DNA of 64,000 nucleotides from Pseudogymnoascus verrucosus (GCA_001662655.1 KV460206.1); one strand, 5' to 3'; positions 10,713 to 38,008 are shown, counted from the first letter of the stretch. Made by a program: numbers and translations. Notes: generated from the letters alone by a model not told the origin.

Positions 10713-11568
10713 ATGCGTCCTGCCTCATTTATCTTACCTTTTTCCATTCTACATCGTCAAAGCATTGCTACCACTGCACGTTGCACTCCGGCATTAAGAT
10801 ACCCTGTACTGCCCAGTACCCCACACATATACCCCACGTGTAGATTGCGTGCACAGCCATACTCATCCACCATGTCGGATACAGGGGCTGCGAATATATC
10901 CGCAGAGCCAATGAAGGCGACACAAGAAGAGTCAAACAGCAAAAATGTAGCTGTAGAGAAAAACGAAGCAGCAGCGGCCGAAGCGCCACAAGAAGAGCCA
11001 AAATTACCGCCACTTAGCGCAGCGGACTTCGCGGCCTACAACGGCATGGCGGAACACATGGAATACTTCGTAAGTGCATTATCACTCCCGCCACTTCTTG
11101 TATTAAGCTAACACGTTCTAGCACAATAATTTCCGAAGGACCTGGAACCTTCTATATGGTGCCTGCGAGTCTAATCAACGCCCAAAGAACTTGTCCATCA
11201 AGCAGTTCATCACCACTGGCCTGCAATTTTGTGGGCATCTCACGGCGCATCACTCCATCGAGGAGATGCACGTCTTCCCTGTTCTGGCCAAGAAAATGCC
11301 AGAGTTCAAGAACGGCCCTAAGTACAAGGGTGCTGCGGAGTTGCTAAGGCAGCACAAGGAGATTCACGATGGCCTGGACGTGTTTAAGGAGTACTTACAA
11401 CAGTGCCAGACTGGGGAGGCCGACTTTGATTTGAGGGTGCTCAAGACGAAGATGGACTCTTGGGGAACAGTGTTATGGACTCATCTAGACCAAGAGGTCA
11501 AGACATTGGGTGCCGAGAATATGAGGAAATACTGGACTGTAGCAGAGATGAGGCGGATGCCAATGTAG
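10713..11568 (+). CDS. Hemerythrin-like (HHE cation-binding domain) protein
   Basis: Intron 11070-11121 joins MAEHMEYF to HNNFRRTW. His/Glu motifs: HLTAHHSIEE..VFP, HKEIH, HLDQE. In-frame ATGs at 10713 and 10872. Confidence 0.85.
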
Positions 11569-23531: not shown

Positions 23532-25281
23532 TCATAGGTGGTGGTGTAGGCAATAGTTAATTTCCCAACTTCCTGAGATATGTAGATTATTTTTGTGTTA
23601 TTCGCTGTGTGCTTTGACACTTCGACGAGGGAAGCAATTGATAGACTTTAAGACACTGAAGCAAGCTTTATTTGTGGCTTGTGACTGCCGATACCCCGCA
23701 TGAACTTCTGATCCCCTTAACTGCCGACCTTTGATATGGTTGTCGTAATTGGCAATGCTCGACAAAAGTTTGGTATCAAGCCTCAGAAACATAACTGACT
23801 TACAGCCGAGGTCATCATCCTTGCTACAAAAAGGGAAGAGTCTCTATTTGAAACCAAAATAAAGGCTCAGTAGGAAGATCTTTGCCATGGGTATTTCTAC
23901 TGCATTATCCGGGGTAGTAGCCGGTGAGACCAAAGTTCAGCAAGGTTTTGAATTGTGATATTATTGGCCGTCCGTGACGTGGAATCGTGTAGAGTTATTC
24001 TGGCTGCACTGTTCATGCCACTGAAGTCTTCAGCGGGCAAATAATGATGTTAATGGAGTCTATATGTGAAGCTATTCAGATACAATTGTGAGAACTCTGT
24101 GGTCTCCTCCAAGTCTCATATTTTGATATCCGCCACGCACGTGCTTGGCATCCTTATTACCCGTACACCCCGCAAACACCCCATCCTAACAGAATTGCGC
24201 TAGGCCCGGGTATGCCCCCCGCATACTGATGTAGCCCCGGTTATAACAATTCCATTATTGGAGTAAGATGCGGGTCATGGCAATCCCAATGAAGGTAAAC
24301 TCAAAAATCACCTGAAGTTTCGTGTGTGGCACACGGATATCGTTACGTGAACCCAGCTGCTAGCTGCCCCTTTTGAGCTCTTATCTGCTCCGTGTGAAAC
24401 CTGCAGGCACGCAATAGTTGCCCCGTTTTTATTTACCAGGGATAAGCATTATGTGATAACGACCACCATCCAGTAAGGTGTACCTAACTACGAGATAACA
24501 CTGATCCCCCCCAGTAAGATTCTGTCACGGCATACGAGTACGAAAACTTTAGTTTGTTATGCCGAACCCACTAACCTTATAGTAAGTAGGTCCGGCAATT
24601 CCCTGTCGGACACTGACGCCCAAAGCCAAGTTTGGTTAAAGTCGCCAAGTTTGTCTATTGGAGTCTCACTCCCCCCTACAGGTGAAAATAGAACGACTAA
24701 GGCCTTATAGGAACAGTTTGTTTACTGGTACCTGTTTCCGTTACCCGCAACCGAGATGGATTTGATAGTTCAGGCACGCGAATGCGATAGCTCGCAAGAC
24801 GTCAGTGACATATGACATGTCGCCTTAAATAGGTTGGCGAGGCTGTCGAGGTGGAGCCTCTACCTCTTTAACTTTGAGCCTGACCATAAGGGCCTATCCA
24901 AGATAGGCAATCCCCTATGTCGGGAAGCCCTTATATTTAGGGAAGGGCTGCCGAAGTAAGACCCCCCGCTTGCTCAGCTGTGATTATAACCATGTAGCCC
25001 CACCTCTCACTCAGCTGTGATCATAACCATTAGGCCCTATTCAAGATGATCGTCCGAGCAAGGAACTCATCCCCGGAATATATGTGAGTTTACATTCCGG
25101 AAAACGCTGCCGAGGCGAAGCCCTCTTCTTCATCGCTTGTGATCGTGCCATACAGACGTATCCGGGATGGGCGTTCTCCTATATTGGGGGGCTTTATATG
25201 GAGGGCGCCGCCCGCTGCGGAAGTGACAGGCAAGAATTTGTGGCGTTGAATCTCGTATATTTTCTCTCAATCACTTAAGCT

Positions 25282-26913
25282 ATGAGGTCCTCTACCAGCT
25301 TCGCTGCTGCGATTGGGATTCTTGCAGCGGCGCCTGCGCTTGCAGACATTTGTCAAACACTGAAGGCTTCCGGCCGAAATGTGGACAAGCCTTTCAGTCT
25401 CGCATACGAAACCGAACAGAACAACTACTGGTCAACAGCATGCGCAAGTCTTCGTCCGAGATGCATGCTCTCTCCGAACAGTACCCAAGAGGTGGCCGAC
25501 ATTGTTGCAGCGCTGCATGAGACCAATGACCAATTCGCTGTCAAGTCAGGAGGCCATATGCCCAACAATGGTTTTGCCAGTATTGCCAATGGGATTCTGA
25601 TCTCTACCCGAAACCTCGACCAGGTCGTATACGACCCTGATACTACAAACGTTGTTGTTGGTCCTGGTCTCAAATGGGAGGAGATCATTGAGGGTATTGA
25701 GCAGACCGGCCGCACTGTTGTCGGTGGGCGGATGGGCGCCGTTGGAGTTGGAGGATATCTTCTTGGAGGTGAGTTATATTGCACCAACTTCTCATTCGTT
25801 CCTGCTAACTTTTAAGTAGGGGGTCTCAGCTTCCTCAGTGCACAGTACGGATGGGGGGCGAACAACGTTGTCAATTATGAGATTGTCCTTGCAAACGCCA
25901 CCATTGTCAATGCCAATGCAACGGCAAACCAAGGTCAGCATGGGATCTTAAAACTGTCGAAATTTGCTAACAGGCTTCAGATCTCTTCGCATCCCTCAAG
26001 GGTGGTGGTAACAACTTCGGAATCGTGACAGCGTTCACAATCAAGACGCATCCACAGGCACACAAAGTCTGGGGCGGAAACTACATCATCGATGGTAGCA
26101 AGACTGACCAGGTGCTCGCCGCAATCCGTGATTTCACCGAATATAATCTGGATGATAAAGCCGCAATCATCGCGACTTCAGAACGTAGCACCCTCCTCAA
26201 CACCTGGATCTTGTTTCTGTTCTACGATGGTCTTGAGCCTCCGGCAGGAGTCTTCGATAACTTCACGCACATTGGACCCATACTCAAGACAACTAAGACA
26301 AGGAGTTACCTTGAGCTCGTAAAGTTTAACGACCAATTTATCTTGGAGGGTCAGCGATACGTTATTGCCACAGAAACGATGCCTCTCCCGAACAAGACTG
26401 AGGGTGCCGTAGTCATGAGGTCGATATATGACCACTGGACTGATGTTACCAAGTCAATCATCTTGGAGCCAGGACTGCTCAGTTCGATCGCTTTCCAGCC
26501 AATGCCGCGTTCAATCACGAGCAAGGCTAAGGCACTGGGAGGAGTAAGTACAATCTCAAAATAATAAAGATACGCTGTCTAACCGTGCCTTACAGGACTT
26601 GATGGACTTTGAGACGACCCACGACTACATCGTTATCGAACTTGACTTCTCCTACCTCTTCGCAAGCTCCGACACTGCAGTTGACGCAGCGACCCAGAAC
26701 TTGTACAGTGGCATGCGCAACATCGTTGACCAGCACGTGGATAACGGACTTCTTCCTGATATATACCGCCCATTGTTCATGAACGATGCGTATTTCAGAG
26801 AGGATTACTGGGGTAGATTGCGCACGGCCGAGAAGGCTCGCGTGGTCAGACACGCAGTTGATCCTGAGGGATTCTTCCAGACCAGAACTAGTGGAGGATT
26901 CAGGTTGTCGTGA
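25282..26913 (+). CDS. Secreted FAD-linked oxidase (VAO/PCMH, berberine-bridge-like)
   Basis: Signal peptide; FAVKSGGH flavinylation motif; VGVGGYLLGGG, LKGGGNNFGIVT, C-terminal VDPEGFF; three introns. Confidence 0.9.
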
Positions 26914-27157
26914 TTTTGAAATGTATATAATAGTGGATATCATAATGGAAACCGCACATAGCGTACGTATTACATATGGCAGCTAGAATATTTCCCGGGG
27001 GCGGAAGTTATATAAATTTATCAGCACGAATCAAGCTGCCCTATATCCCGTGTGCGGAGAATCAAGGAATTGAAATGTTTGTAATCGCCTGATTTTGATG
27101 GGGAGGAGGTGCATATAATGCCGGCCGTGTTTGATTTTACCCTGGTGAGAGGTGCAT

Positions 27158-27188
27158 CTCCGCGGTGAGGCGGCAGGAGGCTCCGCGG
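27158..27188 (+). promoter_or_regulatory. Two NirA/NIT4-type nitrate-response boxes (CTCCGCGG x2) upstream of P450nor
   Basis: CTCCGCGG at 27158-27165 and 27181-27188 both match the Aspergillus NirA consensus CTCCGHGG; a HGATAR (AreA-type) site lies on the minus strand at 27018-27023. Confidence 0.65.
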
Positions 27189-27485
27189 GAGCGGCTGAAA
27201 CCTCAACGGGTACGACGCCACCAGGCACTATGACGATTTAATATTCCGATCGTTCTCGTAACTTGTGTTGCAAATTTGATATTGACTCATTTTATAGCTA
27301 CAATCATGCGTTGTAAGAGTCAAAGCAAAAGGCTGACTGAGCCATACGATACCCGGAACAGGCGGTTTGCCTAGTTGTCGACAAGGGAACAAAAAGTATA
27401 TGAGCTCGTGCAGGTCGCTGGTAACTGAAATTTTTGTAGACCATCACCCATCTCTATTACTGCACTTTGAATCATACCTTTCAAG

Positions 27486-29229
27486 ATGCTTGCCTTCAGA
27501 CCCATTTCCTCCTTGAGCTCTTCGAAGTCGTCGGTCTTCAGAATCTCCAAAACTGCCCTGAAATCCATGTCTACAACTGCAGGTAAGAAAGAGTCCGTTT
27601 ACCTCCGTCACTCTGATAATAATTATGTTGGTTGATAGGCACGCCAAAGTTTCCTTTCTCTCGCCCCCGCGGAGCAGAGCCAGCAGAAGAATATGCCCAC
27701 CTCCGAGCCACCGACCCCGTATCCAAGGTCGAGCTCTGGGATGGAAGCCAAGCATGGCTCGTTGTTAAACACAAAGATATCTGCAGTGTCCTCACTGACG
27801 AGCGCCTTTCGAAGCAACGCAACCGTCCTGGCTTCCCAGAGCTCGACCAGGGTGGAAAGGAGGCAGCGAAGCGAAAGCCGACATTTGTTGATATGGACAA
27901 GCCGGACCACATGAAGTCAAGGTAGCAAATCCGATAATCCAATACTAGAGCTGGGCTAATATGTTTTGATCTCACAGGGGCATGATCGAAGACATTTTCT
28001 CGCGCGAGGCTATTGAGAGAATGCGTCCCAGCATTCAGAATACTGTTGATACTCTTCTTGACGAGATGATAAAGGATGGCTGCAAGAATCCGGTTGATGT
28101 CGTGGAGAAGCTGGCTCTCCCGGTTGCATCTTACGTGAGTTTTCTATCTCTTGCAAAAAAATCGAATGCTGACATATTTGGTTGCTTTCTTAGACCATTT
28201 ACGGAATCCTTGGTGTACCATTCGAAGACCTCAAGTTTCTCACACACCAAGCCGCCATCCGCAGTAATGGAAGCGCTACCGCAACAGCCGCATCCCAAGC
28301 AAACCAGTGAGTTTCACGTATTTCCTCATTGGCGTTCGTTTCTAACGAACCATTTAGGGACCTCCTCGACTATATCGGGGGGTTGGTTGACAAGAGAGTT
28401 TCTGAGCCGAATGGCGATCTCATCAGCAAACTTGTAACAGAACAGGTGAGTAAAACTCCTCCTGTCTATTGACCAGATAACTCTTACTAATATTCTCTGC
28501 CAGCTCGTGCCGGGTCACATTCAGCGAGACGACGCCATTCAGATGGCGTTCTTAATGCTCGTTGCAGGAAACGCTACCATGGTCAACATGATTAATCTGG
28601 TTAGTCATTCCACAAACTGTTCAGAGAATTAACTGACATGCTCGATTTTCTGTTTCATAGGGAATAGTTACCTTGTTTGAGAATCCCGCCCAACTCGCGG
28701 ATCTGAAGAAAGCTCCATCTCTCGCACCAATTTTCGTCGAGGAGCTATGCCGTTTCCACACTGCCTCTGCCCTAGCCACTCGACGTGTGGCCAAGGTTGA
28801 CATCACCCTAGGTGGCAAGGTAAGGCTCATTTTCCACAGTTTTGCATCTATTACTGACTCGTGAACCCCGCAGACAATTAAAGCCGGCGAAGGAATAATT
28901 GCAGCCACACAATCCGGAAACCGCGATGCCGACGTCTTCCAGAACCCCGATACATTTGACATGTACAGGAAGCGCGGGACCGAATCAGCCTTCGGTTACG
29001 GATATGGAGAGCATCGTTGTGTTGCGGAGGGGCTTGCTCGCACTGAGTTGGAGATCGTCTTCTGTAAGCAGTTTTCCTCTTGCATTCTAACTTTCACGGC
29101 TAACAAATGATTACAGCTACTTTGTTCCAGAGGCTCCCAAATTTGAAGCTGGCAGTTCCGCTGGATCAGGTCAAGTACTCACCTCCAGAGCGTGATGTTG
29201 GCATTACTGAGCTCCCAATCACTTGGTAA
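27486..29229 (+). CDS. CYP55: Cytochrome P450nor (CYP55) nitric oxide reductase
   Basis: Nine exons: 27486/27567-27582, 27639-27921, 27978-28134, 28194-28306, 28358-28445, 28504-28599, 28661-28819, 28874-29063, 29117-29229; 404 aa from the second ATG. CYP55 motifs: PKFPFSR, RPGFPEL..GGK.AAK.KPTFVDMD, AIRSNGS, LVAGNATMVNMI, EELCRFHTASALA, heme GYGEHRCVA, RDVGITELP. No N-terminal membrane anchor. Confidence 0.96.
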
Positions 29230-29671
29230 TACGATATGAGAAGTTCATTCATAACCCCTCGAATTAGACGAGCGCGGCTGTCATTAGATTTCATGTTATC
29301 TGGGGGAAAAAGTTAACATGTGGAGACAATCCCCACTGCTGTATTTTAACAAACGGAGTTCAGGTTTTCTTTTGTACTTTTCTCTTTCTGTAGAACTACC
29401 TTTCGCCGATCATAGAGGCGGCTTAAAAAAATATAAGAAGGCCACCAATAATATGATTATTATACGGCTAGGGCCTCATCTGCCTAAAACATCTTCCCCT
29501 TACATGTGCATGTTTAACTTTAACCAGTTTGACTGGCTGAAGTGTGGGGATATTAACCATCTATGTAATCCGTGTAAGGTTTGCCAAACACTTAGAATCG
29601 GCAAAAAATAGATCAAAAACAAAAACAAAAAAAATTGACTGGTCTACTTAAGAGTAGATGGTTCTGAAATA

Positions 29672-29764
29672 TTCCGAACCGGGGAGTCGAACCCCGCGCA
29701 ACCGCGGATTCATAATTCTTTCGAATGGTGAGAGGCGGATATGTTACCGATACACCAGTTCGGA
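29672..29764 (-). tRNA. tRNA-Glu (CUC) with 22-nt intron
   Basis: Minus strand reads TCCGAAC...TCCGC-CT-CTC-A-[CCATTCGAAAGAATTATGAATC]-C-GCGGT...GGGGTTCGACTCCCC-GGTTCGGA. The acceptor and T stems pair, and the intron is at canonical 37/38. Confidence 0.92.
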
Positions 29765-30204
29765 GTGGGGTTGTTGTGCCGAACTAGTTATTAGGGTTGC
29801 AGTAGTTCTCGGTAGCATTTGTTAAATCTTCGGTATATGGCTCCGGCTGTAATCCTTGTTTAAACTAGGCAAGTATCCGCATTCCTAATTATCGACGGTT
29901 TCCCACGTATCATGAGATGATTCCTATAGAATCAAGAAGCTGATTTTCCATGAATTCCGCAATGGTGGCTGCAACAATTGCAATTTCATTGAGAGATTTT
30001 CAGGGATTTTCACTTACAGAATCATTCATTTAAAACGGAAATGAATGTTAATATGTCCCCACCTATAAGCCCATGAGCAACGGGCCATAGGAACGGCACA
30101 AAAAGTATATAATAATCATGTCTAGTCCACAGAGTATGTCGTGAGTTTCATCTGTCCATATTCTTCAGGCCGCCCGTTATTTGTCAGATTTAACTTAGTT
30201 CAGT

Positions 30205-31610
30205 ATGATATCCAAGGTCGCAGCTCTCGCCGCTGTTGTGACCGCTGCTCACGCCCAGTCAGCATGCACCCTCACTGCCTAAACTCATCCTTCCATGGCC
30301 TGGTCCAAGTGCGCCATGGGAGGCACTTGCACAAGTCAACAGGGATCCGTCGTCATCGACTCAAACTGGCGCTGGCTTCACACCACTGACGGGTATGTCA
30401 ACTGTTACACCGGCAACGAGTGGGATGCAGCGCTCTGCCCTTCCAATGCGGAGTGTGCTACGACATGCTGTCTTGATGGCGCCGACTAGGGGGCACTTAT
30501 GGTGCTACGACTAATGGTGATGCGTTGACATTGAAATTTGTCGCTGAGGGCGAATTCAGCACGAATATCGGCAGCCGTCTGTATCTACTTGAGTCGGGGA
30601 GCAAGTATCAGGGCTTAACTCTGCTGGGGAATGAGTTCACCTTTGATGTCGATGTATCTAATCTGGAGTGAGTATAATTTGCATGATTTCGTATCACATT
30701 AGCTAATAAGGGGAATTAGCTGCGGTATTAATGGGGCTCTTTACATCTCGTCCATGGACTTGGATGGTGGTGTAAGAAAGTTTTCTAGCAACACGGCTGG
30801 TCCAAAATGCGGAACTGGATACTGCGACTCTCAATGTCCGCGGGACGTCAATTTTATTGACGGTGAAGTAAGATGTTCATTCCCCAATTGAAGACGCTAT
30901 AAAACTAACTTGCAACCAGGCTAATGTGGAAAGCTGGGCCGCTTCCTCCAACGATGCAAACGCTGACATTGGCACCCTTGGTGCTTGCTGTGCCGAGATG
31001 GATATCTGGGAGGCCAACAAGGTCGCAACAGCCTAAACCCCTCATCCTTGCACCAATGGTGCATACCATTCACGCGTTGGAGATGCATGCGGCGGCACAT
31101 ATTCAACAGACCGTTATGGTGGCAACTGCGACCCCGATGGATGTGACTTCAACAGTTACCATCAAGGTGATCTGACCTTCTACGGCCCTGGCGACAGTTT
31201 CACCGTTGATTCTACAAAGCCCATGACAGTTGTCACCCAGTTTCTCACTGGGTCCAATGGCGCCTAAGTGATATCAAACGCTTTTACTCCAGGATGACAA
31301 GGCTCTCGCCAACTCGGAGAGTTTGATTACCGGTGTCTCTGGAAATTCCGTTACTGAAGACTACTGCGTGGCGCAAAGGGCAGCTTTTGGTGACAACACT
31401 TCTTTCATGGACAAAGGAGGCTTAGCCACACTGAGCGCGGCATTAGCTAAGCCCATGGTCCTGGTCATGTCCCTTTGGGACGACCATGCTGCTAACATGC
31501 TTTGGCTCGACTCCACCTACCCCATGGACAGTACCAAGCTCGGCGCTACTCGTGGCTCCTGCGCTACGAGCTCTGGTGTGCCCGCTGATGTCGATGCTGA
31601 GCAGCCTCGA
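30205..31610 (+). pseudogene. GH7 cellobiohydrolase I pseudogene
   Basis: Signal peptide [36 protein letters not shown], catalytic [24 protein letters not shown]. In-frame stops at 30280, 30487 and 31034; frameshifts near 30490 and 31262-31290; C-terminus missing. Confidence 0.9.
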
Positions 31611-31982
31611 GGTACGGTCACAGTCCAGGCCGGCAACAACTTATTTTCCAATATGAAGGGACATGCTTTCGATATATACGATAGCACTAGTGCCCTACTG
31701 GAAGGTAACATGTTTGGAAGCGTTGATTCACCAATGGCGAGTTACACTGGACTAATCTACAATGTCCCTGATTCGAGTAGTGCCTCGGCTTGTTCGAGTA
31801 CCCTTGGCCGGGCGTGCGAAGTCAACACAGTGACGGGCTCGGGCGGCTGGCCGAGCTTGACGAATACAGCTGCGTTGACTACAATTAACAGGTATACATC
31901 CAAGATGTATGTGGTTACGCCTCTTCCAGATAGTAGCGTTAAGAGTAAGTTTACGGGCAACGCTGGGGTTGGGGATATCTGA
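31611..31982 (+). pseudogene. Pectin lyase (PL1) C-terminal fragment fused in frame to the GH7 relic
   Basis: [18 protein letters not shown]...[24 protein letters not shown] and the NAGVG terminus resemble fungal pectin lyase C-termini; the N-terminal part is absent. Confidence 0.75.
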
Positions 31983-33630
31983 GAAATGAGACATGTGGAA
32001 TGAAGCTACTACTCCATAAGTGGAATCTGCTATAGTTCACCCTATGTGCGCAGAGCTGTATATAGGACTGCAAATAAGTTTCTATATAGGACTGTATATA
32101 TGTCAATAATGGCGCAGCAGTGTCAGCCGTACTCTCCCCTCCCCGTCAAGCTTAATATGATGTGCACATATACCAGCAAGGTGCCTCTGTGCTACAGATG
32201 TTCCCATACAGATTTCACGCAAAGATTGGGGGAACCTTACTTTACGGGCCGCAACTACACACCCTCGTGCCCACCTGTGCAAGGGTTCCATTGGTGCGAG
32301 ATTCGTATCGACAGGAGGGTATTCCCAGCTGATACTACAGTAATATATTACGCAGAGAAGCGGCCAAGAGAGCTGACACTTTGCGGGGAAACGGCGATGA
32401 GAACGTGGGGTACAGTTCAAACGCGTGGCAACGTTGTCTATATGTCAATAGAGTGTTGGTAATATTGGGCTGGGATGATAATATGGTGATCCGTTCAGCT
32501 CGCGGGCCGTGCTGACAGCACCAAGACAGTAGGAACTAACTCAGCTTATTTTGGTAAACCGCGCTGATTCGACGACGCCGCTCCAGCGGCCACCCCGGTT
32601 GGCGCTAATGGCGAGGTTGGAGGCTACTGCCAAGACGGGTCTATTCCGACCGGCCGGTCACTCTTCGACCGAGACTATGAACAACTAATATCTAACATCT
32701 AACATCGATGAAAGACAATATTGATGAGATGACTGTGGGTAAGAAAAGAAACATCAGCTCTCGGAGAACTCCATATATTTATTTTATCTTCTCAGCTCCC
32801 TCTATGGAATGGGGAATGGGGCAACTTGACCCCGGTGCCAAAAATGTATTCAACTGTCAGCCGCCCGCCGCCACTTAGCTAACGTCATCGTGGTGGGTTG
32901 GGCGTTTTCCGTTTCTGGAGACGAAGGCTGCGGGTTAACCGCCCACGCCCCCAAAGAAAATGTGTCTCGGTCCTGCGGGCCTTAGCTCTCTTTTTTGCCT
33001 TGTTCTAGACCAGTTACTCTAGCTTCTCCGCCCGACCGACCCTTAGAAAGCCACCCACCCGCTGTTTAGGTAACCAGGTCAGTCCACTTACACTGCCAAT
33101 TTCCAGTGTCAATCCCGAAGGAGTGCCTGAACCACAAGACATCTACATGGGGCCAAAAACGAGACATAGATGCGGAATGCGCCACTATTGATTCGTTCGG
33201 GGCAGTGCCGGTATCCATTGAACCTATCGGCACGCTGCTCCGGGGGTGTCAGCACTGCATTTGCTATTGCGGTTTGGCCGGCCGAGAGTGTGTGCAACCC
33301 CGTTTTCGGTGTGGGTGAACCACAAGTTCACTGCCTAAACGGGGTATCACATCACACCACGAGAGGCTGCTGTTGACGTCGAGGTTACCACCACATGTGA
33401 GTTTCTCCTGCTTCTCCTGCTTCTCCTGCCGCTTGACGCGTCTATAACCCTCTTTGTTCCTTCGTTCTTCTTTCTTCTTTTATCGTTTACGTTTGCTATT
33501 ATAGCAGACATAAACAACCTCATCTCTCTGTCTCACTCTCTCCCTCCCTCAAATTTCATAAAAGAGCCACTGAGGTGGACTCATCCTTGATATCATACCT
33601 GACTATCCTGCGCATAACCTCACTGCCAGG

Positions 33631-35091
33631 ATGAGCTACTTCCGCGCACCAGTGAGTGCGTCGTGGAGAGCAGCATCGTCGCAAAGACAGAATTTCATGC
33701 TCTCAAACAGAGCTCTCATCTCCTCTCCACTTCTACTCAGAGGGGCTGGATCGATTTCATCACGTGGAGTTGCAACGACAACAACAGCCGCCAATACCAG
33801 TCGCTTTGGAAAGCGAGCCCGTATTATTCTCATCGCGGTCTCCGCTTCTGTCTCTATCGGCCTGTCCATGTACACTGGAGGCAAGGATACAACTCGATCG
33901 AGCTTGGTCTCCTCAGACAAGAATCCAAACACAGCAGTTTCCGCCGTCTCGGGAAAGCAAGCAACTCGCCAAAATGATGGAAAACAAAAACCTGTAATGA
34001 CATTGGAGCCAGTCTCATCGCAGCCTTCCATCTCCTTCGTGCGACCAGGAGAAGTTACAGATGAGCACTTGAAGATCTACGATGCCATTGAGGACGGGGA
34101 CCTCGATATATCGAAACTGCCAAGAGAGAACGCGGTTCTCACAGCCGCCCCATTTGTCCCTCCGCCCATCACTCGCGACTACCCCGTTCTCCTCCAAGTG
34201 CCAATGGTGACGACGACCAAAGAAACACAGCTGACGAGCCAGTTCAAGTACGAGCAGTGGACCTTCAACGACATGGTTCCGGGACCATTTATCCGAGCAC
34301 GAGTTGGTGATGTGGTGGAGCTGTCGTTGACGAACAAGGACGAGTCGGGAAATCCACACAACATCGACTGTCACGCCTTTACTGGTCCCGGGGGTGGCGC
34401 CGCACTGACGACTGCCGAAGAGAACCAGACCAAGACGGCGAACTTCAAGCTCCTAACCCCAGGAATATACCTATACCACTGCGCCGCGGCCCCAGTGCCC
34501 GTGCACATCGCGAACGGCATGTACGGTCTCATCTACGTCCAACCAGCCGAAGGAGATCTCCCACCCGTCGACCGCGAATACTACGTCATGCAGAGCGAAT
34601 TCTACTACGAGCCCCCGGAGGTTCTCGAGAACGGACGCAAATCGGATACTGTCGAATTCTCATACCCAAATGCCATGCGCGAGGAGCCTGATATTGTTGT
34701 CTTCAACGGCCGCGAGTCAGCGATGACGCGTGATGCACCGCTCAAGGCGGAGGTCGGCGAATCTGTTCGTATTTTCTTCGGTAACGCGGGTCCTAATCTC
34801 ACGAGCTCGTTTCATGTCATCGGAGGCAACTTCAGGAAAGTGTATCGTGATGGCGACGTCCTCAGCCCGCCGGCGAACTTTGTGCAGACTATCAGCGTTC
34901 CACCAGGCTCTGCGTCGATCGTGGATATGAAGATGGCCGTTCCCGGGACATATGCGTTGGTGGACCATGCGATATTCCGGTTGGACAAGGGTGCGGTTGG
35001 GTATTTGAATGTTTCGGGGCAGCAGAAGACTGAGATTACGACGAGTAAGGAGCATGCGGAGCCGTGCGTGGGATGCAAGTTACACCCATAA
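33631..35091 (+). CDS. nirK: Copper-containing dissimilatory nitrite reductase (NO-forming)
   Basis: Intronless, 486 aa. Motifs WTFN..VPGPFIRARVGD, HNIDCH, YHC, HIANGM, SSFHVIG and YALVDH give full type 1/type 2 Cu ligands plus catalytic Asp/His. Arg/Ser-rich presequence followed by a hydrophobic segment. Confidence 0.97.
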   Translation: MSYFRAPVSASWRAASSQRQNFMLSNRALISSPLLLRGAGSISSRGVATTTTAANTSRFGKRARIILIAVSASVSIGLSMYTGGKDTTRSSLVSSDKNPNTAVSAVSGKQATRQNDGKQKPVMTLEPVSSQPSISFVRPGEVTDEHLKIYDAIEDGDLDISKLPRENAVLTAAPFVPPPITRDYPVLLQVPMVTTTKETQLTSQFKYEQWTFNDMVPGPFIRARVGDVVELSLTNKDESGNPHNIDCHAFTGPGGGAALTTAEENQTKTANFKLLTPGIYLYHCAAAPVPVHIANGMYGLIYVQPAEGDLPPVDREYYVMQSEFYYEPPEVLENGRKSDTVEFSYPNAMREEPDIVVFNGRESAMTRDAPLKAEVGESVRIFFGNAGPNLTSSFHVIGGNFRKVYRDGDVLSPPANFVQTISVPPGSASIVDMKMAVPGTYALVDHAIFRLDKGAVGYLNVSGQQKTEITTSKEHAEPCVGCKLHP

Positions 35092-35468
35092 GTTACCGGG
35101 GAGGGCATTCTGATGAAGTTCACGATTCATTTCGTTTTCTTTGCTTTTTGTGATTGTGCTTTTCCAGCGGCATTCCCTTTGTTTTTGCAAACTCGCGTCA
35201 TGGTGTGTGGTCGGTTGCTTGCACTAGAAATAGTGGATATTGCTTTTCTATTCGAGACACAACTATCAATCTTGATGGATAGATCAAGGCGAAATAGATT
35301 TTTTTCCGATGGACTCATTGAAATTTAATCTATGCTCATGTTTGCCAACTCATAATTGCACGCCCTACTCCTGCCGCATTCCTATCCTTACGTCATTGCC
35401 GTTGGTCCTATTTAACGAATCAGCATTGTTAGAGGTTGTAATACGGCGATTTAATATAACCCACAGTA

Positions 35469-35807
35469 TCAAAATAAATACATCCACAAAAAAACGATTC
35501 CCAGGACAGCCGAGAAAGCCATTATATAACGTGTTCTAAACCGTCTCAAATGTCCAACGAACGCCCGATAGTCCTCAGCCCGTCTTTTCTGCGCAAATTC
35601 GTCGGTGGCTTTTGCCATTTCTTTTTCAAGTTCGTATTCGTAGGCAAGGTTTTCTCGAAAGACGTCTGCCACGGCTTTGACGCGGCGGTCAAGGGCGGCT
35701 TTGGCGTTGGCGGCTTCGAGTTGATCGGGTGGAATGGAGGGAGCTTGTGGTGGTGGATTTGCGGGGCCTCCTTTCGTTTTGCTATTCATCATGGCTATAG
35801 ATGACAT
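35469..35807 (-). CDS. Small hypothetical helical protein with C-terminal hydrophobic anchor
   Basis: 112-aa ORF from ATG 35807; charged helical core and terminal YIMAFSAVLGIVFLWMYLF. No family recognised. Confidence 0.55.
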   Translation of the reverse strand: MSSIAMMNSKTKGGPANPPPQAPSIPPDQLEAANAKAALDRRVKAVADVFRENLAYEYELEKEMAKATDEFAQKRRAEDYRAFVGHLRRFRTRYIMAFSAVLGIVFLWMYLF

Positions 35808-36251
35808 TTTGAGTTTTGAGTTTTGAGTGTTGAGATTTGATGTTGTGGGAGGAATGTGCGACTTGCGTGTGTTCGGAGGGATCATACGTCTCGCTAGGTT
35901 TGTTTTCTAACATCTGATAAAATTCTGGTCTGATGAGACCCTTACTTAAGGGCTGTTGTATTACCTCACTGAGTAGGATGTTACCACCTCTTATTTGACA
36001 ATAACACTTCTTGCTGGTTGATAAACACACATTTCTATCCACAGATCTTGCTGTTTTAATATTTTGTACATTCGTCCAGTTATCGTACACTGAGTGGATT
36101 GGCATCCTCTATTCTTCATTTCCTCGGCGAATTCAAACTCACCGAAGTTTGAATTCCACCCTCCCTATCGCTTACCTCTCTCCCTTTCTGCTCCAGAGGA
36201 TAACAAATATCTTCAAGACTGTCCGTGATGCTGCAGAGCTCATGCGGGCCA

Positions 36252-37712
36252 CTATTTAGCAACGGGAATTGGCTCACAAACTGTTACATGTCCACCTAAG
36301 ACAGCCCCAAGGAAGATCTTCCCCGTCTTAGCATCGTGCACCGCGACCGTCGTTCCACTCGGCATGAACTTTCCCTCCCTGTCCTCTAACAACTTCGACA
36401 CACGATAATTGCCAGAACCACTCTTCTTCCCCTTTCCACTCTCATCATACTCCCCAACCACTTTCGTAATCTTCCACACAGTGCTCGGCAGTATGGTATC
36501 AGTAGCATACTTTACTACCTCCACTAGCTTGAGCGAGTCTGGGAAGGCTGCGGCGAAGATATCACCGTTGGCGTCGACGGATAGGTTATCCATCGGCATC
36601 CCGACTTCAATTTCATCGATTTTAGTCAGACCTGTCGAGGAGAGCGAGAAAACGCCAATGCGACCGGTTATGGAAGAAGGGACGTAGAAAAGGCCATCAA
36701 GACCCCGGACTAGGCCGTTGGGGAAGGAGAGGCCGTCAACTGCGATTTTGCAATCGTTGGAGCTAGTGCAGTGGGCGATGGATCCTCCTCCGAGAATAAG
36801 GTCGAGGGAGCGGCGCTGTGGGTTGGAGAGTTTGTTAGATACCAAAACAAATAAGTTTATCTTCATGCTCGGGGGTTTCATACCAGACCACCTGCGGCAC
36901 ATTGTTAGCGGCACGCACTATCTGAGAGTTGTTGCGGGGAAATGGCGACCACAACTTACTTGGAACGCTGTGATCGTTGGACACTACAAATCCTCCATTC
37001 AAATCCGCAGCAACCTTGTTCGTAGAATGCAGGACTCCGTCATTTGCACCAAATGTTCCCGTCCACTTTAGCTCGTTCTCACCCCTAACAAGTTCAAAGG
37101 ACTCGACGGTAGCATTGGCGCCGATGTTCATAGCATCCAGAAACTCTCCTGAAACAGCATCTACGGGCGGACGAAGGTTGGTCATCCAAAACCTCAAACG
37201 GTTATTGGGTAGGATTTCCACGTCAAATCCGTTGGGGTCGATGGCCTTGGATCCCGCTGGCCCAAGGTAGTTGCCGGTGATTTGAAGTCTGTGGGCTCCA
37301 TAGTTGCCGTCTGACCCCGGCGAATCAATGCTAAGGGCTACAAAGCGTCCATTTGTGGTTCGCCCTGACACGTTGAACTTGTCACCGCTGGCAAGGGGGT
37401 TAGATAAGGGCGGGATACAGTGAGGACACAAAAATATCGAAGCGCTTACCCTGGACTCCATTGATGGCGAGACTTCAGATCAACACACGCTCCATAGAGG
37501 GTGCGGCCTTCATCGTCAAGCCAGAGATCTTCGCAGCTTTCAAGTATATTTTCAGGGCCATATATTTTGTGACAGCTGTAAGGGAAATCCTCGATTGGCT
37601 GGATAGTTCGTCCTATACCAATCGCGATAAACAGAATATCTTTAAGGAAGAACTCATAAAAGAGCCCGATGACGACAGCACTGACGCCAGCAATGATGGC
37701 TCGGTCCCTCAT
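36252..37712 (-). CDS. Paraoxonase/arylesterase family six-bladed beta-propeller hydrolase
   Basis: N-terminal anchor; LESCEDL, DPNGFD, SNDH, FPNGL and MDNLSVD motifs; several introns (boundaries approximate). Confidence 0.85.
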
Positions 37713-38008
37713 AATGATTACGAAAACCCAATTATGTTGTTTGAATTGAGTAATCAACCCGTCCGGGTTGCTCGGCGATGGACCCATCACCGAGATAGTC
37801 GGAACAAAGGTTAGTCCGGTTTCGCATGTGATAATGAGTCTCCACTATCAGGGAAAATAAATCTGTTGGGAAATTCTTCCTGACCGCCGTGTGGTGCTTT
37901 GATTTATATTTCAATTAAATGGTTCTTTTCGCTGTTGCAAGATTGATATTTTTCTCCTGTTATTATTAAGATTTTCGATTGGTGCCTGGCCGTGGTCGCT
38001 TTTCAAAA

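What the first reader, a model, noticed from the sequence alone, without database searches (positions are those of the whole stretch)
27158..35091. Linked fungal denitrification module: P450nor and NirK about 4.4 kb apart on the same strand
Seen: intact CYP55 (ends 29229) and intact nirK (starts 33631), co-oriented, with no recognisable intact protein gene between them. Established: NirK reduces nitrite to NO and P450nor reduces NO to N2O, the Fusarium oxysporum-type pathway. Inference: this is a gene cluster coupling an NO producer to its NO sink, possibly inherited or transferred as a unit. I do not know tight linkage to be the general arrangement in fungi, so it may be an undescribed denitrification cluster. 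It predicts that this fungus produces N2O.
Basis: partly seen in the sequence, partly recalled or inferred. Interest (0 to 1): 0.88.

Follow-up and report, generated by a model that had tools for sequence, protein, structure and literature searches.

The report
Linked fungal nitrite and NO reductase genes
A soil fungus of the genus Pseudogymnoascus carries intact genes for the two enzymes that turn nitrite into the greenhouse gas nitrous oxide only 4.4 kb apart, a linkage seen again in one unrelated uncultured fungus but absent from most fungi examined.

Summary
An intact P450nor/CYP55 gene (27486-29229, 9 exons, 431 aa) and an intact single-exon nirK (33631-35091, 486 aa) lie on the + strand, 4,401 bases apart. 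No intact protein gene lies between them. The gap holds a multi-copy tRNA-like element, a GH7 cellulase pseudogene with five lesions, and the last third of a pectin lyase gene.

Both proteins keep their catalytic residues and carry mitochondrial-type N-termini. This fits the Fusarium-type route nitrite -> NO -> N2O.

- Contigs of related strains are compatible with the same arrangement.
- In 7 of 70 metagenome loci (1 of 10 fungal nirK lineages with usable flanks), an unnamed ascomycete has the two genes head to head, about 0.6-0.8 kb apart. The pairing is therefore not a one-off and is hard to put down to chance alone.
- It is not general. In 7 of 9 named species with both genes they lie on different contigs.
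- The two gene trees disagree, so transfer as a unit is not supported.
- The ancestors had two unrelated genes in between, and I found no shared promoter motif.

No paper describing the linkage was found. Expression and N2O production remain untested. I rate it a modestly interesting new member of the fungal metabolic gene clusters.

The parts
27486..29229 (+). P450nor (CYP55) gene. Exons: 27486-27582, 27639-27921, 27978-28134, 28194-28306, 28358-28445, 28504-28599, 28661-28819, 28874-29063, 29117-29229. Product 431 aa. The N-terminal 27 residues are presequence-like, and a second Met lies at residue 28.
   Evidence: Spliced model with 8 GT-AG introns and no stop, 410/431 identical to P0121. 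P0121 aligns over residues 31-430 with F. oxysporum CYP55A1 structures at 546 bits. The heme-Cys motif FGYGYGEHRCVAE starts at residue 371. It sits inside the fungal P450nor tree.
29672..29764 (-). tRNA-like, multi-copy 93-base element
   Evidence: ARAGORN calls a tRNA with an odd anticodon loop, probably an intron. In 4 of 4 runs a 93-base contig at 2.4-4.9 times the neighbouring depth covers exactly these coordinates, and all long contigs end here. Rfam does not confirm a tRNA.
30206..31605 (+). GH7 cellobiohydrolase/endoglucanase pseudogene
   Evidence: Pfam PF00840 in six frame-shifted pieces covering model positions 8-422 of 435. Against intact GH7 proteins P0247, P0299 and P0334 it shows a TAA after 'QSACTLTA' (30280-82), a frameshift after 'CCLDGAD', a stop between 'KVATA' and 'TPHPC' (31034-36), and a frameshift near 31262-75. 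Homology ends at about 31605.
31613..31982 (+). Pectin lyase (PL1) remnant, C-terminal third only, in the same open frame as the GH7 tail
   Evidence: Matches residues 247-358 of the 359-aa Aspergillus pectin lyase A (1idk, E 9.5e-13). Relatives carry 318 (X3, X4) or 958 (X6) extra letters at 31604/31613. A related strain's annotated protein, P0122, fuses P450nor to this same remnant.
31983..33630 (.). Non-coding spacer and nirK 5' flank
   Evidence: The ORF of 100 aa or more tested here (32004-32459) has no Pfam match. Relatives differ here by indels of 1, 20, 1, 2 and 1 bases, none a multiple of three (table 4).
33631..35091 (+). nirK, copper-containing nitrite reductase, single exon, 486 aa. 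It has a basic, acid-free N-terminus and a hydrophobic anchor at residues 65-83.
   Evidence: Pfam Cu-oxidase_3, Cu-oxidase_2 and Cu-oxidase. Best hits are 86-89% to Pseudogymnoascus proteins and 'copper-containing nitrite reductase' of many fungi. Copper-ligand and catalytic positions are invariant in 18/18 fungal NirKs. 304 bits to Neisseria AniA, 1kbv. N-terminal composition.

Best explanation
This is a real pair of functional genes for the two-step fungal route nitrite -> NO -> N2O.

NirK is a trimeric copper enzyme. Here it has a cleavable-looking presequence and a membrane anchor, and it is expected to make NO from nitrite in the mitochondrial intermembrane space, using electrons from the respiratory chain. 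P450nor is a heme-thiolate enzyme that takes electrons directly from NAD(P)H. It is expected to turn two NO into N2O. One gene would give a mitochondrial form from Met1 and a cytosolic form from Met28.

The two genes became near neighbours in this Pseudogymnoascus lineage because the two unrelated genes that once lay between them, a GH7 cellulase and a pectin lyase, decayed and were partly deleted.

The linkage is lineage-specific and was not inherited or transferred as one unit across fungi. Because the same pairing arose in a second, unrelated ascomycete as a head-to-head pair, it is probably retained by selection. Keeping an NO maker next to its NO sink would allow joint inheritance or regulation.

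Shown: gene integrity, family membership, the linkage here and in the second lineage, and discordant gene histories. Inferred: localisation, co-regulation, the selective benefit and N2O output.
For: - Gene models and catalytic motifs are intact.
- Both N-termini lack acidic residues. In P450nor the first D/E is at residue 46, with 5 R/K and 13 S/T in residues 1-32. In NirK the first D/E is at residue 86, with 10 R/K in residues 1-70. NirK has a hydrophobic stretch at 65-83, mean Kyte-Doolittle 1.76.
- Related strains: X2 and X3 each have one contig covering 24000-29680 or 29603 and one covering 29750/29755-38000, both ending in the multi-copy tRNA-like element. X6 has a single 7.5-kb contig, about 85% identical, that joins P450nor, GH7 and the pectin lyase remnant.
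- Second lineage: P450nor lies directly upstream of nirK on the opposite strand in 7 of 70 metagenome loci (L006, L010, L012, L014, L020, L021, L063). Predicted starts are about 0.57-0.79 kb apart.
- That second lineage is 1 of the 10 fungal-like nirK clusters with at least 5 kb of flank on one side, out of 32 fungal-like and 44 clusters in all.
- My estimate of chance linkage is about 6e-4 per lineage for 20 kb of flank.
Against: - Linkage is not general. By the contig lengths given, NirK and P450nor lie on different contigs in 7 of 9 named species that appear in both lists. These include Pseudogymnoascus sp. WSF 3629, with locus tags VE00_08050 and VE00_07730. In the other 2 species they share a multi-Mb contig at unknown distance.
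- 9 of 10 metagenome nirK lineages with usable flanks show no P450nor. This includes L001, the nearest relative outside the genus, with 10 kb of upstream flank.
- The window's flanks share no synteny with L001, L002, L005, L022, L008 or L012.
- The two upstream regions share no more 8-10-mers than shuffled sequence does.
- In one of the three linked variants (L020/L021) nirK has two in-frame stops.
- I obtained no expression data.
- Both genes may simply sit in gene-turnover regions, which would raise the chance of accidental adjacency.
Confidence: 0.5

Rival explanations
1. Accidental neighbours. Both genes work, together or separately, but their closeness is a by-product of local gene loss and rearrangement. 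It has no selective or regulatory meaning.
For: - Two unrelated carbohydrate-enzyme genes lay between them and are now decaying.
- A multi-copy tRNA-like element, a likely rearrangement point, sits in the gap.
- No shared promoter words.
- Linkage is absent in 7 of 9 named species and 9 of 10 metagenome lineages.
- The gene trees are discordant.
Against: The same two genes are adjacent in a second, distantly related lineage, in a different orientation and with a much shorter spacer, across three sequence variants 4-6% apart in DNA. Two independent hits for one specific gene pair are unlikely by chance, unless both genes are confined to a small part of the genome. The window itself is a core-looking region with RPB1, GPI2, lipin and DPP3.
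Confidence: 0.33
2. P450nor here belongs with its upstream neighbours, an FAD-linked oxidase at 25.2-26.9 kb and a flavin monooxygenase at 22-23.5 kb. Together they would form a secondary-metabolism-type set, as Higgins et al. 2018 proposed for many p450nor loci, and nirK would be unrelated.
For: The FAD_binding_4 and FMO-like ORFs lie just upstream on the same strand. X2 and X3 carry the oxidase and P450nor on one contig. Higgins et al. report that 19 of 167 p450nor regions are predicted clusters (PMC6161760, abstract and section 17).
Against: No PKS, NRPS, terpene cyclase or prenyltransferase domain appears among the 66 ORFs of 100 aa or more that I scanned, out of 155 such ORFs across the 64-kb window. 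P450nor carries a mitochondrial-type presequence and is 546 bits from the NO-reducing F. oxysporum enzyme via a 95% identical proxy.
Confidence: 0.07
3. The pair is a mobile two-gene unit that spreads between fungi by horizontal transfer, possibly on a giant transposon.
For: P450nor has clearly moved between classes. Dermatophyte sequences nest inside the Pseudogymnoascus clade (99% SH-aLRT), and one clade of all Onygenales is rejected (p-AU 5e-74). In L012 the pair lies about 3 kb from a DUF3435 fragment and next to AT-rich DNA.
Against: NirK did not follow. A joint Pseudogymnoascus-plus-dermatophyte NirK clade is rejected (delta lnL 72.4, p-AU 3e-55). In the metagenome fungus a 1.85-kb nirK-only segment sits in a second context without P450nor. 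The window region is flanked by housekeeping genes and shows no transposase.
Confidence: 0.08

Closest known systems
Fusarium oxysporum denitrification enzymes: NirK and P450nor/CYP55A1
   Same: The same two enzyme families and the same expected chemistry, nitrite -> NO -> N2O. The P450nor proxy aligns over 400 residues with CYP55A1 structures. The presequence plus second Met resembles the two-isoform arrangement I recall for F. oxysporum.
   Different: The pathway is known as two separately described genes. I found no paper stating that they are physically linked in any fungus. Linkage in F. oxysporum itself was not examined here.
Neisseria aniA-norB divergent gene pair
   Same: A truncated denitrification pathway encoded as a nitrite reductase gene and an NO reductase gene transcribed divergently from a shared spacer (PMC3032703, passage read). 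AniA is the closest solved structure to the window's NirK. The metagenome pair of the L012 type has the same head-to-head layout.
   Different: It is bacterial. The NO reductase is a membrane heme-copper-type NorB, not a soluble P450. In the window the genes are in tandem and 4.4 kb apart, not divergent.
Fungal nitrate assimilation cluster (crnA-niiA-niaD of Aspergillus, recalled, not checked here)
   Same: A small fungal cluster of consecutive steps of inorganic nitrogen metabolism, with a divergently transcribed reductase pair.
   Different: It is assimilatory, uses different enzymes, is conserved over many genera and has known regulators. None of these was shown for the nirK-p450nor pair.
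p450nor genomic regions surveyed by Higgins et al. 2018 (PMC6161760)
   Same: The same gene family. That study included 16 Pseudogymnoascus genomes, 15 of them with p450nor (preprint passage; supplement row), and it examined about 50 kb on each side of p450nor.
   Different: The text I read (abstract, section 17, passages) discusses secondary-metabolism neighbours and low co-occurrence with nirK. It does not mention nirK as a neighbour. Its figshare neighbour tables could not be seen and may contain it.

Membership tests
CYP55 / P450nor | P450 fold with a cysteine heme ligand in the FxxGxxxCxA-type motif | tested here: met
   FGYGYGEHRCVAE at residue 371 of the spliced product. Pfam p450 on the exon at 28865-29110, E 6e-7.
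CYP55 / P450nor | Full-length colinear similarity to the solved NO-reducing CYP55A1, well above that to CYP105-type bacterial P450s | tested here: met
   P0121, 95% identical to the window protein, scores 546 bits to 1xqd/1rom-type entries against 281 bits or less for the best non-CYP55 P450. This was tested on the proxy, because a spliced sequence could not be submitted.
CYP55 / P450nor | Conserved I-helix AGNAT, HTAS and RDVG segments. Their role in proton delivery is recalled, not tested. | tested here: met
   AGNATMVN at 267, HTASALA at 311 and ERDVGI at 419, aligned with the same segments of CYP55A1.
CYP55 / P450nor | NAD(P)H-dependent reduction of NO to N2O | not testable with these tools
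   Needs an enzyme assay.
NirK (copper-containing nitrite reductase) | Two cupredoxin domains | tested here: met
   Pfam Cu-oxidase_3 (E 6e-11), Cu-oxidase_2 (E 3e-10) and Cu-oxidase (E 2e-5).
NirK (copper-containing nitrite reductase) | Type-1 and type-2 copper ligands and the catalytic Asp/His. The assignment of roles is recalled. | tested here: met
   H243, D246, H248, H283, C284, H292, M297, H395 and H446 are invariant in 18/18 fungal NirKs and match the corresponding AniA segments.
NirK (copper-containing nitrite reductase) | Nitrite reduction to NO; trimer | not testable with these tools
   Needs an assay or a structure.
Fungal metabolic gene cluster | Physical adjacency of genes for consecutive steps of one pathway | tested here: met
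   4,401 bases apart with no intact gene between.
Fungal metabolic gene cluster | Linkage kept across species or recurring independently | tested here: inconclusive
   For: compatible contigs in X2, X3 and partly X6, and a head-to-head pair in 1 of 10 metagenome lineages. Against: different contigs in 7 of 9 named species.
Fungal metabolic gene cluster | Co-regulation | not tested
   No RNA data were laid. A shared-word test of the two upstream regions found nothing beyond shuffles, but this test has low power.
Horizontally transferred unit | Congruent histories of the two genes | tested here: not met
   Dermatophyte P450nor lies inside the Pseudogymnoascus clade. The matching NirK clade is rejected, p-AU 3e-55.
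GH7 glycoside hydrolase (the gene in the gap) | Uninterrupted reading frame | tested here: not met
   Two in-frame stops, two frameshifts and a lost 3' end. It is a pseudogene.

The most novel reading that the evidence does not exclude
NirK and P450nor form a recurrently assembled eukaryotic denitrification gene pair. Selection against NO self-poisoning would have brought the NO maker next to its NO sink at least twice in ascomycetes. One case shares a roughly 0.6-0.8 kb bidirectional promoter, mirroring the bacterial aniA-norB pair. This would tie P450nor to nitrite-derived NO in these fungi, against the view that it is mainly a secondary-metabolism enzyme.
Probability: 0.4. Interest if true: 0.65.

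Novelty: new member of a known kind. Interest (0 to 1): 0.42.

Why it matters
There is an open debate on whether fungal P450nor really serves denitrification. It rests partly on the weak co-occurrence of p450nor with nirK (Higgins et al. 2018, abstract). Physical linkage of the two genes in two unrelated lineages is a new kind of contextual evidence that, at least in some fungi, the enzymes work as a pair.

It also gives concrete test systems:
- a culturable soil genus whose nirK makes up 4.9% of fungal nirK placements in global soil metagenomes (PMC10269876, passage);
- a compact bidirectional promoter for reporter work.

The linkage is patchy, so it does not change the general picture of fungal N2O sources by itself.

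Tried and rejected
- **Tools unavailable.** The window's whole genome is not held.
- **Earlier scan notes.** Nothing relevant.
- **Promoter words.** The P450nor and nirK upstream regions share 19, 5 and 1 words of 8, 9 and 10 bases. Shuffle means are 11.2, 2.8 and 0.7, with maxima 28, 13 and 5. Only one 8-mer is also present in L012 and L021. No signal.
- **Synteny.** tblastx of the window against L001, L002, L005, L022, L053, L012 and L008 found only the two genes themselves.
- **tRNA check.** Rfam gave no tRNA match at the gathering threshold or at E <= 1. The element is therefore called 'tRNA-like' on ARAGORN and copy number alone. My by-eye reading as an intron-bearing tRNA-Glu is unverified.
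- **Run X4.** It has no contig on 24000-29600 but has 29750-35701. Missing cover cannot be counted as absence of P450nor there.
- **RNA.** There is no expression evidence.
- **Taxon of the linked metagenome fungus.** A flanking S28 peptidase from L017, a nirK-only locus of the same nirK cluster, has best named hits of only 54-57%, to Pseudogymnoascus VKM F-103 and Xylographa. The taxon stays 'unnamed Pezizomycotina'.
- **Gene models of the linked P450nor copies.** These are rough, with some introns left in. Intactness is inferred from open, colinear exons and an intact heme motif.
- **Secondary-metabolism reading.** No core biosynthetic domains among the ORFs scanned.
- **Supplements.** The figshare neighbour tables of Higgins et al. 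could not be opened. The one held supplement gave only genus counts.


Full report
**What is there**

The window comes from a Pseudogymnoascus-type fungus. The nirK product is 86-89% identical to proteins of six named Pseudogymnoascus strains, and an identical 486-aa protein is on record from a 1.77-Mb contig.

nirK is one uninterrupted frame at 33631-35091 on the + strand. It carries three multicopper-oxidase/cupredoxin Pfam domains. In an alignment with 17 other fungal NirKs, the positions I recall as copper ligands and catalytic residues are invariant. These are H243, D246, H248, H283, C284, H292, M297, H395 and H446. They also match the same segments of Neisseria AniA, the closest solved structure at 304 bits.

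P450nor needed a gene model. Using a full-length relative (P0121) as a guide, I obtained nine exons from 27486 to 29229, separated by eight GT-AG introns of 51-61 nt. The product has 431 residues, no stop, and 410/431 identities to P0121. P0121 aligns over residues 31-430 with the solved F. oxysporum CYP55A1 at 546 bits, against at most 281 bits for any other P450. The heme-cysteine motif and the AGNAT, HTAS and RDVG segments are present.

Its other coordinates are right, and the distance between the genes is 4,401 bases.

**What lies between**

- At 29672-29764 on the minus strand, ARAGORN calls a 93-base tRNA-like gene. Rfam does not confirm it.
- From 30206 there is a GH7 cellulase gene with a signal peptide. 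It is broken by a TAA at 30280-82, a frameshift near 30490, a stop at 31034-36 and a frameshift near 31262-75. Its 3' end is missing.
- Its last open frame runs straight into the final third of a pectin lyase, residues 247-358 of the 359-aa Aspergillus enzyme.
- The remaining 1.65 kb before nirK has no Pfam match. Relatives differ from it by indels that are not multiples of three.

Related strains carry 318 or 958 more letters at the GH7/pectin-lyase junction. Annotated proteins of relatives show the same junction with more linker sequence (P0241, P0242). One strain's annotation even fuses P450nor to the pectin lyase remnant (P0122).

So the ancestral order was P450nor, GH7, pectin lyase, nirK. 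The two carbohydrate-enzyme genes have decayed.

**Is the linkage real and shared?**

Logan contigs of four other runs were laid on 24000-38000.

- In X2 and X3, one long contig covers the left block (FAD oxidase plus P450nor) up to 29680 or 29603. Another covers 29750/29755-38000 (GH7 remnant, nirK and beyond).
- Both contigs stop in the tRNA-like element. This element appears as its own 93-base contig at 2.4-4.9 times the neighbouring depth in all four runs, so it is multi-copy and breaks the assembly graph. This is compatible with the window's arrangement but does not prove it.
- In X6, a single 7.5-kb contig about 85% identical to the window joins P450nor, GH7 and the pectin lyase remnant. 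That part of the order is therefore older than the window's own species.
- X4 has the right block but no contig on the left block. I do not count this as absence.

**Is it general?**

No. NirK and P450nor lie on different contigs in seven of them:
- Pseudogymnoascus sp. WSF 3629
- Uncinocarpus reesii
- Polytolypa hystricis
- Thyridium curvatum
- Malbranchea cinnamomea
- Fusarium nematophilum
- F. decemcellulare

In the other two, Arthroderma uncinatum and Venustampulla echinocandica, they share a multi-Mb contig at unknown distance. These fields describe clusters of near-identical proteins, so this is indirect evidence.

**A second linked lineage**

A scan of metagenome contigs with a fungal NirK alignment returned 70 loci. 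A tblastn search with eight P450nor proteins hit 7 of the 70. In every one of the seven, P450nor lies immediately upstream of nirK on the opposite strand.

- Predicted start codons are about 0.57-0.79 kb apart.
- The seven loci fall into three sequence variants, 4-6% apart in DNA.
- Their nirK is only about 61% identical to the window's, and their P450nor sits in a different part of the tree.
- The organism has no close named relative. A flanking peptidase from a related nirK-only locus, L017, has best named hits of 54-57%.
- Grouping all loci at 90% protein identity gives 44 clusters. Of these, 32 are fungal-like and 10 have at least 5 kb of flank on one side. This is the only one of the 10 with P450nor in the flank.

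Points against a strong constraint:
- In the L020/L021 variant, nirK has two in-frame stops.
- A 1.85-kb nirK-only segment, 96% identical, also sits in a second context without P450nor.

**Histories of the two genes**

In a 56-row P450nor tree, the dermatophyte sequences (two Trichophyton, one Arthroderma) nest inside the Pseudogymnoascus clade (99% SH-aLRT) as sister to P. australis. Other Onygenales group elsewhere. Forcing all Onygenales together costs 156.8 log-likelihood units (p-AU 5e-74).

In the 47-row NirK tree, the dermatophytes form their own clade away from Pseudogymnoascus. Forcing the P450nor-type grouping costs 72.4 units (p-AU 3e-55).

P450nor has therefore moved between classes without nirK. 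This argues against the pair travelling as a unit. Both trees are 'quick' searches with midpoint roots. The direction of transfer is not established.

**How it most likely works**

Both products start with basic, serine-rich, acid-free stretches. NirK follows this with a hydrophobic segment at residues 65-83, and P450nor has a second Met at residue 28.

By analogy with what I recall of F. oxysporum:
- NirK would sit in the mitochondrial intermembrane space and reduce nitrite to NO with respiratory electrons.
- P450nor, in mitochondrial and cytosolic forms, would reduce NO to N2O with NAD(P)H.

Localisation, induction and gas production are inferences.

The rest of the window offers no further denitrification gene among the ORFs of 100 aa or more that I scanned. 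The neighbours include RPB1, pirin, a hemerythrin-domain ORF, GPI2, an FMO, an FAD oxidase, a hydrolase, GH2, lipin and DPP3.

**Chance or selection?**

For one named gene pair, adjacency within 5-20 kb has a probability of about 3e-4 to 6e-4 per genome (my estimate). Seeing it in the window's lineage and again in 1 of 10 sampled lineages is hard to explain by chance. The exception would be if both genes are confined to a small, fast-turning part of the genome. The decayed genes in the gap and the transposon-like and AT-rich surroundings of L012 make that a live alternative.

I give retained, probably selected linkage about 0.5, accident about 0.33, and the secondary-metabolism and mobile-unit readings under 0.1 each.

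**Comparison with what is known**

The enzymes and the pathway are textbook. The closest layouts are:
- the divergently transcribed aniA-norB pair of Neisseria (PMC3032703, passage read);
- the fungal nitrate-assimilation cluster (recalled).

Five literature searches found no statement that nirK and p450nor are physically linked in a fungus. Neither did my reading of Higgins et al. 2018, which covered the abstract, section 17 and the passages. That study looked about 50 kb either side of p450nor in 167 genomes, including 15 Pseudogymnoascus. Its figshare tables, which I could not see, may well contain the neighbour.

I therefore class the finding as a new member of a known kind, of moderate interest.

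Noticed in passing
window 27486-29229; proteins P0123, P0124, P0127, P0130: P450nor of the dermatophytes (Trichophyton, Arthroderma) is 88-90% identical to the window's second exon. It nests inside the Pseudogymnoascus clade, which looks like inter-class horizontal transfer of P450nor alone. One clade of all Onygenales is rejected (p-AU 5e-74).
   Followed up: yes
window 30206-31982: A GH7 cellulase pseudogene is fused in frame to a pectin lyase remnant. The window and run X2 lack 318 letters that X3 and X4 have at 31604/31613, and X6 has 958 letters there. This is stepwise decay of two plant-cell-wall enzyme genes.
   Followed up: partly
window 29672-29764 (-): A 93-base tRNA-like element is present in several copies per genome. 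All long contigs of four runs end in it, so it is a possible rearrangement point. Rfam does not call it a tRNA.
   Followed up: partly
L007, L008, L009, L011, L013, L017, L050 versus L012 9367-11581: A nirK-only segment of about 1.85 kb, 96% identical to the linked copy, sits in a second, unrelated genomic context. That context holds an S28 peptidase, a NACHT-ankyrin gene and a GMC oxidoreductase. It is a duplicated or transposed nirK.
   Followed up: partly
L012 3868-4407 and 16000-21000: A DUF3435 fragment (tyrosine-recombinase type, as in large fungal transposons) lies about 3 kb from the linked P450nor. DNA with 30-38% G+C lies about 4.5 kb beyond nirK.
   Followed up: no
L020 1253-2740, L021 3125-4612: In this variant of the head-to-head pair, nirK has two in-frame stops in its N-terminal region, while P450nor looks open.
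   Followed up: partly
protein P0125 (P. destructans VC83_00187, 226 aa): The annotated P450nor of the bat pathogen stops being colinear after '...VVEKL' and continues in what is an out-of-frame reading in the window. It may be a broken gene or a poor model. No P. destructans NirK appeared among the best 120 NirK hits listed.
   Followed up: no
window 35062-35088 (NirK residues 478-486): A C-terminal P-C-x-G-C-K-L-H motif is conserved in all 18 aligned fungal NirKs (one has A in place of the usual V) and lies beyond the end of the alignment with bacterial AniA. Its function is unknown to me.
   Followed up: no
window ~29033-29035 (P450nor residue 384): The window has Gly in 'CVAEGLAR', whereas the six relatives printed with this region have Trp (CVAEWLAR) and F. 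oxysporum has His. This is two residues after the heme-ligand motif.
   Followed up: no
window 11122-11565 (+): A hemerythrin HHE-domain ORF lies 16 kb upstream of P450nor. Such domains can bind O2 or NO. No link to the pair was examined.
   Followed up: no
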